Position numbers and translations under genes: made by a program. Source: a phage. Taken from it: a stretch of DNA of 64,000 nt. The DNA is taken from sequence record PZ386969.1; one strand, written 5' to 3'. How positions within the stretch are numbered: position 1 is the first letter of the stretch; each line of letters opens with the position of its first letter. This document shows positions 53,259 through 56,424 of this stretch, piece by piece. The notes beneath the pieces were generated by a model. It saw only the letters and a program-made list of their open reading frames with translations. It was not told where the DNA came from and did not search any database.

Positions 53259-53480
53259 ATGGATGATTCCTTGTATTTTCATTGTCCTAGGTGTGATATG
53301 CTTCATCTATATCACATTAAGGGCGAAACCCAAGGTCCGATGTGGTCGTGGAACAACAATGTTATTGAGCCTACGTTCACACCGAGCCTGCTGGTGAATG
53401 CATCTGATCCAGCATCACGTTGCCATCTGTTCCTGACCGACGGCAAATACAATTCCTCGGCGACTGTTTCCACGATCTGA
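53259..53480 (+). CDS. small Cys-containing protein (73 aa)
   Basis: ORF track; CPRC motif. Confidence 0.3.
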   Translation: MDDSLYFHCPRCDMLHLYHIKGETQGPMWSWNNNVIEPTFTPSLLVNASDPASRCHLFLTDGKYNSSATVSTI

Positions 53481-53950: not shown

Positions 53951-54000
53951 AGAAAAAGGCGGTATTATTACCGCCTCGACCTCTTGTTTGGTAACATCAA

Positions 54001-54243
54001 ATGAGCCCAGAATTTGAAAACCTGTTCGAGCGATGCTTCGAACCAGGTTCTGTGTCCGGTTACATGGACCGCCTTTGCACTGCCATTGTAATACGCCTTG
54101 CTGCCAAGGGTATCGTTGTCAACACCATTATCCGCAATGGGAACAACTTTATCATGCAGATGACTGATTATCACCACCGCACAGGCATCATCCAGGTGTC
54201 ATGTGTTGACAACAGCATTATTGAATGGAGACAGTACGCATGA
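54001..54243 (+). CDS. small hypothetical protein (80 aa)
   Basis: ORF track. Confidence 0.35.
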   Translation: MSPEFENLFERCFEPGSVSGYMDRLCTAIVIRLAAKGIVVNTIIRNGNNFIMQMTDYHHRTGIIQVSCVDNSIIEWRQYA

Positions 54244-54839
54244 CAACTTATGTAATCAATGGCGGCGATCTACTGAAAGCCGCCTGTAGCTTCAATCTGA
54301 TCGACATCTTTGCCCACGGTGCCAACTGTTGGTCTACCATGGGCGCGGGTATTGCCCTGCACATCGGCAACAACTTCCCAGCGCTGCGCGAAGTCGATGC
54401 GAACGACCCTCGTGGTCCAGAGCAACGCCTGGGTGGCATGTCCTATGCATTTGACCACAGCACTGGTGTCTGGGGTGCGAACCTCTACACTCAGTTTTAT
54501 CCAGGTCCGAACGCTCGCATGCCGTCTGTCATCAGTTCTGTTCAGATGTTATTCGAGCAGGTTCACGAAATTGTGGAAGCAACTAAAGACGAAACTGTCT
54601 ATGTCGGCCTGCCTGCTATCGGCTGTGGTATTGGTGGCCTGAACCTCTACAGTGTAGTGCGCCATATCAATCGAATCTCTGAAAGCGTGTATGAAGAGAC
54701 CCGCCGTCGTGTCGTCCCAGTCTTCTATATCAGGGAAGGAGACGGATTCGATGATGATCTGATGGAACTTTCTCATCTGGGCACAGAAGGTATCATGATT
54801 GTCGAAGATGAGCAAGAAATCATCGACGAGGAGGGGTGA
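54240..54839 (+). CDS. macro-domain protein (ADP-ribose binding/processing), putative
   Basis: HGANCWSTMGAGIALHI and LPAIGCGIGG resemble the two glycine-rich macro-domain motifs; ATG 54240 with GGAG 9 nt upstream. Confidence 0.45.
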   Translation: MTTYVINGGDLLKAACSFNLIDIFAHGANCWSTMGAGIALHIGNNFPALREVDANDPRGPEQRLGGMSYAFDHSTGVWGANLYTQFYPGPNARMPSVISSVQMLFEQVHEIVEATKDETVYVGLPAIGCGIGGLNLYSVVRHINRISESVYEETRRRVVPVFYIREGDGFDDDLMELSHLGTEGIMIVEDEQEIIDEEG

Positions 54840-54842
54840 ATA

Positions 54843-55094
54843 ATGATATGTGCGTTTGATCAAGAATTTTATAAAAAGGTCAATATTCTAAAACTTGTCA
54901 TGTCTGGAACTAGTTCGAAAGAAGTATCAGAAATTTATTGTATTTCACAGGCCAGGGTGAGCCAGATTTTGAGGGAAACTATAGGGTTACTTTGCCCAGA
55001 GATAGAAATTAAGCGCGTCAACAAAAAGTTCATTGATGAAAATTATTATACAGTAAAAGCCAAAATAAAGTGTTGGGAGAATAAACATGTATAA
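54843..55094 (+). CDS. small helix-turn-helix protein in a low-GC island
   Basis: KEVSEIYCISQARVSQILRE resembles sigma region-4/LuxR-type helix-turn-helix; local GC visibly lower than flanks. Confidence 0.4.
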   Translation: MICAFDQEFYKKVNILKLVMSGTSSKEVSEIYCISQARVSQILRETIGLLCPEIEIKRVNKKFIDENYYTVKAKIKCWENKHV

Positions 55095-55719: not shown

Positions 55720-56018
55720 TTGTATTCACTGTCATCGGTGTGATCGTAACAGCTGGGGTATTCACAGCCATATTGGGCTACCTGTACTTCATGTTCCTTC
55801 ATCCGTTATTTCAGGCGTTCAGTCTCACGAATTGGTACTTGGCCTGCCTAAAGGCCGACGGCGGCGTGAACACGGCCTCTCTTCCTTACTGGCGGCTGGT
55901 GGCGCATTACTACTCGGTCGGTGGCTGGCCTGGGGAAAGGACATGGAACTCTATCGGTGAGTGGTATGGAATAGGTCGATGGCGTATATTCCCTGATGAA
56001 GACGATCAAGCCCCGTGA
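55716..56018 (+). CDS. small membrane protein (100 aa)
   Basis: GGAGG ribosome site; two hydrophobic helices. Confidence 0.45.
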   Translation: MIVFTVIGVIVTAGVFTAILGYLYFMFLHPLFQAFSLTNWYLACLKADGGVNTASLPYWRLVAHYYSVGGWPGERTWNSIGEWYGIGRWRIFPDEDDQAP

Positions 56019-56082
56019 GGGGCTTTTCTATATCCGGGATAGAGTATCATTGGTTCACCAACGAATCCTCGGGAGAGGCGAT

Positions 56083-56424
56083 ATGAAACGTTCGGTTGTT
56101 GTAAATGACATCACGAGATTGATAAACCTTGTCAAAGATGTGTTTCCACAACAGGTGGATGTCGAGTACGTGGGGAAGAACGGGAAGTGTTACCAGGTCG
56201 CTCTGTTGTTGAAGCACGTGTACCCTCAAGCAGAGATCCATTACAGTCAGACCGAAGGTCATGTGTATACTCTGATTGATGGGCATTACTACGACATCGA
56301 AGGCATCCACTTCAGTGTCCCACCGGATACGTGTTTGCTCGAACACAACAGAGGCCATAAACCCCATCGCTGGCATAAAGGGTTTGTGAACGTACCGATT
56401 TTAGAATGGTTGAGGAGACCATAA
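56083..56424 (+). CDS. hypothetical protein (113 aa from ATG 56083)
   Basis: GGGAGAGG upstream of ATG. Confidence 0.4.

What the first reader, a model, noticed from the sequence alone, without database searches (positions are those of the whole stretch)
54240..54839. Macro-domain gene in the same genome as the PARP-like gene: possible writer/eraser pair or anti-defence function
Two glycine-rich motifs (ANCWSTMGAGIALHI and PAIGCGIGG) resemble the ADP-ribose-binding loops of macro domains. Together with the candidate transferase at 26748 this could form an ADP-ribosylation control pair, or the macro domain could reverse host ADP-ribosylation defences such as DarT-type toxins. The two genes lie about 27 kb apart and appear to be in different temporal classes.
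Basis: partly seen in the sequence, partly recalled or inferred. Interest (0 to 1): 0.7.

Follow-up and report, generated by a model that had tools for sequence, protein, structure and literature searches.

The report
Phage macrodomain, likely anti-DarT eraser
This gene of a ViI-like (Ackermannviridae) phage encodes a small enzyme of the macrodomain type, related to phage T4's Tk.4/AdfM, that most likely strips ADP-ribose from phage DNA modified by the bacterial DarT2 defence toxin; it is a further member of a known family, not a partner of the phage's own ADP-ribosyltransferase.

Summary

It belongs to PHROG 335, the same family as phage T4 Tk.4 (33% identity). A 2025 preprint renamed Tk.4 AdfM after showing T4 needs it to resist DarTG2. 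Homologues occur in 2,665 phage records.

The active site keeps the Asn of DarG (N29). The catalytic Lys of DarG and TARG1 is replaced by an invariant Gln (Q85). Streptomyces SCO6735 has the same arrangement and still cleaves thymidine-linked ADP-ribose from DNA.

The writer/eraser reading is disfavoured:
- The ART-PolyVal gene at 26748 is a late, virion-associated gene found in only 226 records.
- It is internally deleted in close relatives (ZQ1, ChubbyThor) whose macro gene is intact; ZQ1's is 99% identical.

The unstudied parts are an Ackermannviridae-specific acidic C-terminal module and a translationally coupled DUF7234 gene upstream.

Verdict: new member of a known kind, moderate-to-low interest.

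The parts
54240..54839 (+). Macrodomain gene (199 aa plus stop), a Tk.4/AdfM-family ADP-ribosylglycohydrolase candidate
54227..54230 (+). Shine-Dalgarno GGAG, 9 nt before ATG 54240. The ATG overlaps the TGA of the upstream gene (ATGA at 54240-54243), which implies translational coupling.
   Evidence: Read directly from the sequence. The upstream ORF ends at 54243.
54315..54365 (+). HGANCWSTMGAGIALHI (residues 26-42): the first ADP-ribose-binding loop. It contains N29, the equivalent of DarG N22 and SCO6735 N27.
   Evidence: H26, G27, N29, C30 and G37 are invariant in A1. Alignments to DarG, TARG1 and BT1257.
54480..54494 (+). NLYTQ (residues 81-85). Q85 occupies the position of the catalytic Lys of DarG (K80) and TARG1 (K84), and of the Gln of BT1257/SCO6735.
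   Evidence: N81, T84 and Q85 are invariant. Profile alignment pairs NLYTQ with NFPTK and LITK. MAFFT alignment A3. SCO6735 Gln85 literature.
54612..54638 (+). PAIGCGIGG (residues 125-133): the second, diphosphate-binding glycine-rich loop. There is no equivalent of TARG1 D125.
   Evidence: P125 invariant; I127, G128, G130, I131 and G133 at 90% or more. Alignment A3.
54732..54836 (+). Lineage-specific acidic C-terminal module (residues 165-199; 14 Asp/Glu against 1 Lys/Arg). It is predicted as helix-strand-helix at high confidence and is absent from T4 Tk.4.
   Evidence: AF2 secondary structure and pLDDT of about 96. Composition. Full-length fold matches occur only in Ackermannviridae proteins. 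Only 307 of 2,665 records cover at least 80% of the protein.
54001..54243 (+). Upstream 80-aa DUF7234 gene, translationally coupled to the macro gene. Function unknown.
   Evidence: Pfam DUF7234 at E 7.7e-41. Found in 246 phage records, and in every annotated row shown it overlaps the gene labelled Tk.4 or phosphatase.
26748..27212 (+). ART-PolyVal-type ADP-ribosyltransferase candidate, the proposed 'writer'. Listed as context only; the evidence says it is not an obligate partner of the macro gene.
   Evidence: Pfam PF18760 at 41.6 bits, above the cut-off of 31.2. CTAAATACCC motif at 26714. LIMEstone1 orthologue is a 'confirmed structural protein'. Deleted in ZQ1 and ChubbyThor.

Best explanation
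The gene encodes a stand-alone macrodomain of the ALC1-like class (DarG, TARG1, SCO6735, Poa1p). It is the Ackermannviridae counterpart of phage T4 Tk.4/AdfM. It lies in the block of replication and nucleotide-metabolism genes, so it is probably made early. Its most likely role is as an orphan antitoxin: when the host DarTG2 system releases DarT2, which ADP-ribosylates thymidines in single-stranded DNA and blocks replication, the enzyme binds the ADP-ribose through its two glycine-rich loops and hydrolyses the thymine-ribose bond, restoring the phage DNA. Catalysis probably follows the Gln-type mechanism described for SCO6735. In that mechanism Gln (here Q85), held by Asn (here N29), positions the distal ribose for attack by water, instead of the Lys used by DarG and TARG1. 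Shown here: the fold, family membership, the active-site residue pattern and purifying selection. Inferred: hydrolase activity, DNA-thymidine specificity, the anti-DarTG2 role in this phage, and early timing.
Against: No experiment exists for any Ackermannviridae member. The T4 evidence is genetic and comes from a preprint, and no biochemistry on a Tk.4-type (Gln) phage enzyme was found in the library searched. The protein is only about 20% identical to DarG and far below the DarG equivalog cut-off (32.8 against 250 bits). It lacks the longer lysine-bearing mobile loop that SCO6735 is proposed to use for DNA binding. ALC1-like macrodomains also act on Glu/Asp-linked protein ADP-ribose, RNA ADP-ribose and ADP-ribose-1''-phosphate, so substrate cannot be read from the fold. 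Phages of this family replace part of their thymidine with 5-NeOmdU (PMC8989533), and it is unknown how that affects DarT2 targeting. No promoter was identified for the operon; the sigma-70 scan found no more sites than shuffled sequence.
Confidence: 0.6

Rival explanations
1. Writer/eraser pair. The macrodomain reverses or limits ADP-ribosylation made by the phage's own ART-PolyVal-type transferase (26748), which is delivered with the virion. An example would be protecting phage components from it or timing its effect.
For: The 26748 product passes Pfam's ART-PolyVal threshold. That clade has an H-Y-D active site and is grouped with PARP-like protein ARTs (PMC5512222), whose acidic-residue products are chemically plausible substrates for ALC1-like macrodomains. 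The ART looks late and virion-packaged while the macro looks early, so the order of action would make sense.
Against: The genes are 27 kb apart in different transcription units. The macro family is in 2,665 phage records against 226 for the ART. In ZQ1 and ChubbyThor the ART is reduced to its first ~25 nt and last ~60 nt, while the macro gene is intact (99% and about 95% identical). The complete ZQ1 genome has no other ART homologue. T4 Tk.4 has a demonstrated phenotype against a host system.
Confidence: 0.07
2. A broader or different eraser role. The enzyme removes ADP-ribose from RNA or protein targets of other host ADP-ribosylating defences or toxins. Alternatively it processes small ADP-ribose derivatives (ADP-ribose-1''-phosphate, O-acetyl-ADP-ribose), as the database label 'phosphatase' implies.
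Against: These labels are inherited annotations, not tests. The only phenotype reported for a family member is against DarTG2. DarG and TARG1 score better than Poa1p with the family profile (8e-18 and 2.5e-14 against 1.3e-10). The N/Q pair matches the enzyme shown to act on thymidine-ADP-ribose DNA.
Confidence: 0.2
3. Neutralisation without catalysis. Lacking the catalytic Lys, the protein acts mainly by binding, either sequestering ADP-ribosylated DNA or inhibiting DarT2 directly, possibly through the acidic C-terminal module.
For: Q85 replaces the Lys that DarG and TARG1 need. Catalytically dead SCO6735, DarG and TARG1 still inhibit DarT in vitro by interaction. ICP1 AdfB neutralises DarT by direct interaction. 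The C-terminal 35 residues are very acidic, 14 against 1, as expected of a DNA-mimicking surface.
Against: SCO6735 shows that the Gln-type site is catalytically competent and that the Gln is essential. N29 and Q85 are invariant across the family, including members with no C-terminal module such as T4 Tk.4, which still protects T4. The C-terminal module shows no similarity to DarG's DarT-binding domain; the DarG models match only the macro part.
Confidence: 0.1

Closest known systems
Phage T4 Tk.4 = AdfM (anti-DarT factor, macrodomain); PHROG 335
   Same: Both have PHROG 335 as best match. They are 33% identical over the macro core and share the invariant HGxNC, NLYTQ and PxIGxGIG motifs, including Gln at the catalytic-Lys position. 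Both are stand-alone proteins encoded among nucleotide and DNA metabolism genes of a large lytic myovirus of enterobacteria.
   Different: The window protein is 199 aa against 155. It carries an acidic helix-strand-helix C-terminal module found only in Ackermannviridae and is coupled to a DUF7234 gene that was found only in Ackermannviridae-type records. The anti-DarTG2 phenotype has been shown only for T4.
Streptomyces coelicolor SCO6735 and Bacteroides BT1257 (Gln-type ALC1-like macrodomains)
   Different: These are cellular proteins. They have a mobile loop about 5-6 residues longer, which in SCO6735 carries Lys residues implicated in DNA binding; the window protein lacks that insertion. 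SCO6735 was not aligned residue by residue here. Its equivalence is inferred through the DarG, TARG1 and BT1257 alignments.
DarG2 antitoxin macrodomain (M. tuberculosis, T. aquaticus) and PhiKZ gp104 AdfM
   Different: The catalytic Lys (DarG K80, PhiKZ K78) is replaced by Gln. There is no DarT-binding C-terminal domain and no adjacent darT gene. The score is far below the DarG equivalog cut-off.
Human TARG1 (C6orf130) and yeast Poa1p
   Same: Same ALC1-like fold. Top Foldseek hits, with TM 0.81 on TARG1. The H-x-x-N-C plus G-x-G-I-A motif resembles that of Poa1p.
   Different: TARG1's Lys84/Asp125 dyad is absent, replaced by Q85 and G132/G133. Poa1p is a phosphatase for ADP-ribose-1''-phosphate, and there is no evidence for that activity here.

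Membership tests
Macrodomain superfamily (Pfam PF01661 clan) | Three-layer alpha/beta/alpha macro fold | tested here: met
Macrodomain superfamily (Pfam PF01661 clan) | Score above Pfam's curated gathering threshold | tested here: not met
   16.2 bits against a cut-off of 22, covering only residues 103-141. Many homologues do carry a precomputed PF01661 hit, and the family profile matches solved macrodomains at 8e-18.
Macrodomain superfamily (Pfam PF01661 clan) | Two glycine-rich ADP-ribose/diphosphate-binding loops | tested here: met
   MGAGIA (residues 34-39) and IGCGIGG (127-133) align with the corresponding loops of DarG and TARG1 and are nearly invariant.
T4 Tk.4 / AdfM family (PHROG 335) | Sequence membership in the same profile family as T4 Tk.4 | tested here: met
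   PHROG 335 at E 5.6e-63 for the window protein and 1.3e-65 for T4 Tk.4. Pairwise E 2e-15.
T4 Tk.4 / AdfM family (PHROG 335) | Required for phage resistance to DarTG2 | not testable with these tools
   Shown only for T4. Needs a knockout and plaque assay.
DarG2 antitoxin (NCBIfam NF048014 equivalog) | Catalytic Lys (K80) in the NFPTK motif | tested here: not met
   Q85 aligns with K80.
DarG2 antitoxin (NCBIfam NF048014 equivalog) | C-terminal DarT-binding domain, and a score above the equivalog cut-off | tested here: not met
   The match covers model positions 6-135 of 338 only, at 32.8 bits against a cut-off of 250.
DarG2 antitoxin (NCBIfam NF048014 equivalog) | Encoded next to a darT toxin gene | tested here: not met
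   The neighbours are DUF7234, an HTH-like ORF and a DexA-like exonuclease. No neighbouring ORF that was scanned matched a toxin family.
Gln-type ALC1-like macrodomains (SCO6735/BT1257) | Gln at the catalytic-Lys position, held by a conserved Asn | tested here: met
   Q85 and N29 are invariant. BT1257 NMIGQ aligns with NLYTQ. SCO6735 Gln85/Asn27 are described in PMC9411070.
Gln-type ALC1-like macrodomains (SCO6735/BT1257) | Extended mobile loop after the Gln, with Lys residues | tested here: not met
   BT1257 has an extra 'IYKDSKGL' segment that the window protein and T4 Tk.4 lack.
Gln-type ALC1-like macrodomains (SCO6735/BT1257) | Hydrolysis of thymidine-linked ADP-ribose on ssDNA | not testable with these tools
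   Requires an enzyme assay.
ART-macrodomain writer/eraser pair | Co-inheritance or genomic linkage of the two genes | tested here: not met
   The genes are 27 kb apart. Records: 226 for the ART against 2,665 for the macro. The ART is deleted in ZQ1 and ChubbyThor with the macro intact.

The most novel reading that the evidence does not exclude
In Ackermannviridae the macrodomain may have become a two-part counter-defence protein. The conserved, strongly acidic C-terminal helix-strand-helix module, perhaps acting with the translationally coupled DUF7234 protein, would add a second activity. Candidates are DNA-mimic binding of DarT2 (a convergent analogue of DarG's toxin-binding domain) or recruitment to the replication fork or ssDNA-binding protein. 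A related possibility is that the enzyme also erases modifications made by the virion-delivered ART in those phages that keep it.
Probability: 0.12. Interest if true: 0.55.

Novelty: new member of a known kind. Interest (0 to 1): 0.3.

Why it matters
Ackermannviridae (ViI, CBA120 and relatives) are being developed against Salmonella, E. coli O157 and Klebsiella. Knowing that they carry a probable anti-DarTG2 factor helps predict host range against strains armed with DarTG.

The result also extends the recently described phage orphan-antitoxin strategy (AdfN, AdfM) to another large phage family. It shows that the T4-type phage macrodomains use the Gln-type active site known from SCO6735, not the Lys of DarG, which is a concrete point for enzymology. 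Finally, it removes an attractive but unsupported idea, that the phage runs its own ADP-ribosylation writer/eraser circuit.

Tried and rejected
- **Single-sequence Pfam and PDB searches.** Both were weak (Macro E 0.01; 5m3i E 0.026). An alignment-based profile was needed.
- **Pfam hit to PM2 spike protein P1.** E 0.035 over residues 134-184. Treated as noise: it is below the cut-off and the fold search did not reproduce it.
- **PADLOC hit to the ThsA macro model.** E 0.013. Judged generic macro similarity, not evidence for a Thoeris link.
- **Sigma-70 promoter and terminator scans around both genes.** No more sites than in shuffled sequence for 49-58 kb, so they give no timing evidence. The T4 late motif TATAAATA occurs once, as chance predicts. 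The family-specific CTAAATACCC motif was informative instead.
- **Residue-level alignment to SCO6735 (5e3b).** Could not be printed because it ranked below the five alignments shown. BT1257 and the paper's own equivalences were used.
- **AFDB fold search.** Unavailable.
- **ART protein against PDB by sequence.** Found nothing meaningful.
- **Literature on Ackermannviridae.** The review PMC11721090 has no mention of macro, ADP-ribose or DarT. A search for a Kuttervirus transcriptome found nothing relevant. A preprint that mentions tk.4 in T2 treats it only as an sRNA target.
- **The longer start at ATG 54225.** Rejected. It has no Shine-Dalgarno sequence, and homologues start at MTTY.

Full report
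**1. What is there**

Window 54240-54839 (+) is an open reading frame of 199 codons. I take ATG 54240 as the start, not the in-frame ATG at 54225, for four reasons:
- GGAG at 54227-54230 lies 9 nt upstream.
- The ATG overlaps the TGA of the preceding gene (ATGA), a typical translational coupling.
- Homologues from databases are 198-206 aa and begin MTTY.

The gene is under purifying selection, with dN/dS 0.09 against the orthologue in Shigella phage ChubbyThor.

The window comes from an Ackermannviridae (ViI-like) phage. This stretch is 98.9% identical to Escherichia phage vB_EcoA_4HA11 and 98.1% to AV101.

**2. It is a macrodomain**

The single sequence is below Pfam's Macro threshold (16.2 against 22 bits) and only weakly hits the DarG macrodomain in the PDB (E 0.026). 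Stronger tests settle the matter:
- **Profile search.** A profile of 52 homologues (A1) matches M. tuberculosis DarG at 8.4e-18, T. aquaticus DarG at 7.4e-17, human TARG1 at 2.5e-14, SCO6735 at 1.9e-12, BT1257 at about 2-5e-12 and yeast Poa1p at 1.3e-10.
- **Structure prediction.** AlphaFold2 on that alignment gives pLDDT 96.7 and pTM 0.92, with 194 of 199 residues at pLDDT 90 or above.
- **Foldseek against the PDB.** TARG1, Poa1p and DarG come first (E 4e-9 to 1e-7; TM 0.81 on TARG1).

All of these are members of the ALC1-like macrodomain class. The NCBIfam and PADLOC DarG models also match, but only over the macro part and far below the DarG equivalog cut-off.

**3. Which family**

The best PHROG match is phrog_335, labelled 'phosphatase', at E 5.6e-63. 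T4 Tk.4 (NP_049723, fetched) has the same best match at E 1.3e-65. It aligns with the window protein at 33% identity over 115 residues, E 2e-15.

tblastn finds relatives in 2,665 phage records. These include T4-like phages and records labelled as rV5 relatives, and phages of Escherichia, Klebsiella, Salmonella, Pseudomonas, Vibrio, Acinetobacter and Listeria. Their annotations vary: Tk.4, phosphatase, macro domain protein, Poa1p-like, ADP-ribose binding protein.

Three papers in the library bear on function:
- A 2025 preprint found tk.4 as the single T4 gene depleted on a DarTG2 host. It showed that a clean knockout sensitises T4 to DarTG2 and renamed the gene adfM (10.1101/2025.11.20.689424).
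- Earlier work had shown that T4 lacking AdfA and AdfN is still DarTG2-resistant, which predicted such a factor (PMC11825919).

**4. Active site**

In the family alignment H26, G27, N29, C30, G37, N81, T84, Q85, G89 and P125 are invariant. Profile-to-PDB alignments and a MAFFT alignment with DarG, TARG1 and BT1257 (A3) give these equivalences:

| Window protein | DarG | TARG1 | BT1257 |
|---|---|---|---|
| N29 | N22 | Ser | Asn (HICN) |
| Q85 (NLYTQ) | K80 (NFPTK) | K84 (LITK) | Gln (NMIGQ) |
| G132/G133 | Gly-Gly (GNGGL) | D125 | Gly-Gly (GLAGG) |

So the catalytic Lys of DarG and TARG1 is replaced by an invariant Gln, in T4 Tk.4 as well, and TARG1's Asp125 is absent.

This is not a sign of inactivity. 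SCO6735 has Gln85 at that position and efficiently cleaves thymidine-linked ADP-ribose from DNA. Its Q85A mutant is dead and N27S nearly dead, and a water-mediated mechanism has been proposed (PMC9411070). The window protein therefore has the Gln-type site.

It differs from SCO6735 and BT1257 in lacking their longer mobile loop. I could not print a direct residue alignment to SCO6735, so that equivalence is transitive.

**5. What is specific to this lineage**

Residues 165-199 form a confidently predicted helix-strand-helix module with 14 acidic and 1 basic residue. T4 Tk.4 ends before it. Only 307 of the 2,665 records cover at least 80% of the protein. In BFVD, near-full-length structural matches occur only in Ackermannviridae proteins: Serratia phiMAM1 at TMq 0.85 and Erwinia phiEa2809 at 0.78. 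Other phage Tk.4-type proteins carry different additions.

The upstream 80-aa gene is DUF7234. It was found in 246 records, which look like Ackermannviridae by organism name and genome size, and in the annotated rows it overlaps the Tk.4 gene. The function of both is unknown.

**6. The proposed partner**

The 26748 ORF (154 aa) passes the Pfam ART-PolyVal threshold (41.6 against 31.2 bits). That clade has an H-Y-D active site. Its members are predicted to modify host proteins after delivery with the DNA (PMC5512222).

Several observations mark it as a late, virion-associated gene:
- Its LIMEstone1 orthologue (72% identical) is annotated 'confirmed structural protein' and follows a 'putative late promoter'.
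- The same motif, CTAAATACCC, lies 34 nt upstream of the ATG here. It recurs before the next gene (27209).
- With one mismatch allowed, that motif has 10 matches in the window against 2.07 expected, and no shuffle out of 100 reached 10.
- No such motif precedes the macro gene, which sits among topoisomerase II, DexA-like exonuclease and dCMP deaminase genes, downstream of rIIA/rIIB in ZQ1.

A functional pair is not supported:
- The ART is found in 226 records against 2,665 for the macro.
- Several close relatives match both flanks but not the ART.
- In ZQ1 and ChubbyThor only the first ~25 nt and last ~60 nt of the ART gene remain between the PLP gene and the next structural gene.
- A search of the complete 149-kb ZQ1 genome finds a 99% identical full-length macro gene. 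No ART homologue appears other than that remnant.

An eraser whose only job was to undo this ART would not be expected to stay intact and conserved after the ART was lost.

**7. Most likely mechanism**

The protein is probably made with the replication genes. It most likely removes ADP-ribose that host DarT2 places on thymidines of single-stranded phage DNA, using the N29/Q85 Gln-type site.

I put about 0.98 on the macro fold, about 0.8 on ADP-ribose hydrolase activity and about 0.6 on DarTG2 being the main biological target. The rivals are a broader or different substrate (0.2), neutralisation mainly by binding (0.1), and erasing the phage's own ART marks (0.07).

One point of context is worth testing. 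The gene next to the ART is 92% identical to ViI gp226, the PLP-dependent decarboxylase that completes 5-NeOmdU synthesis (PMC8989533). This phage therefore probably replaces part of its thymidine, the base DarT2 targets.

**8. Verdict**

The Gln-type active site and the acidic C-terminal module are the only points of real curiosity. Interest 0.3.

Noticed in passing
window 54843-55094 (+): An 83-aa ORF with weak helix-turn-helix hits (Sigma70_r4, GerE, HTH_28; all below cut-off) sits between the macro gene and the DexA-like exonuclease. Only 4 of 36 related phage records (4HA11, AV101, KE31, SilasIsHot) cover this stretch. In the others the match ends at the macro stop codon, and in ZQ1 and ChubbyThor the exonuclease gene follows directly. 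It has no PHROG match, so it looks like a small inserted gene.
   Followed up: partly
window 26714-26723 and 27209-27218 (+); also 13244, 16657 (-): The motif CTAAATACCC has 10 matches with up to one mismatch, against 2.07 expected; no shuffle out of 100 reached 10. It lies just upstream of the ART gene and of the next gene. The same sequence is annotated 'putative late promoter' in Dickeya phage LIMEstone1.
   Followed up: partly
window 26748-27212 versus L007 (ZQ1) 1495-1640 and L006 (ChubbyThor) 1447-1591: The ART-PolyVal gene is an internal-deletion remnant in several close relatives, with only its start and its last ~60 nt retained. The candidate transferase is therefore dispensable and has been lost in some lineages.
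   Followed up: yes
window 25514-26707 (+): A 397-aa PLP-dependent enzyme, 92% identical to ViI gp226 (YP_004327553). That protein is the decarboxylase that finishes the thymidine hypermodification 5-NeOmdU. The phage therefore probably carries hypermodified thymidine.
   Followed up: partly
window 54001-54243 (+): A DUF7234 gene (80 aa) is translationally coupled to the macro gene through an ATGA overlap. It was found in 246 phage records, which look like Ackermannviridae, and in every annotated row shown it overlaps the Tk.4-type gene. Function unknown.
   Followed up: partly
window 53956-53977: A GC-rich hairpin (AAGGCGGTATTATTACCGCCT) lies in the 50-nt gap between the 53540-53950 gene and the DUF7234 gene. 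It was scored as terminator-like on the minus strand only. It may be a transcript boundary or a processing site just before the DUF7234-macro pair.
   Followed up: no
BFVD entry A0A6G9LAL9 (Salmonella phage bering), seen: A 103-aa protein, 75% identical to the window macro protein over 100 aligned columns, is deposited for a Kuttervirus. In some relatives the macro gene may be split, truncated or mis-annotated.
   Followed up: no
window 53259-53480 and 55996-56424 (+): Other small conserved genes lie in the same operon: DUF6527 (E 4e-11) and a phage YunG-like protein (E 8.5e-43). Both have unknown function.
   Followed up: no
window 26748-27209 (+), PADLOC search: The phage ART-like protein matches candidate bacterial defence-system models: PDC-M13A at E 4e-10, plus PDC-M13B and PDC-M10A. 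The same ART clade therefore appears to be used on both sides of the phage-host conflict.
   Followed up: no
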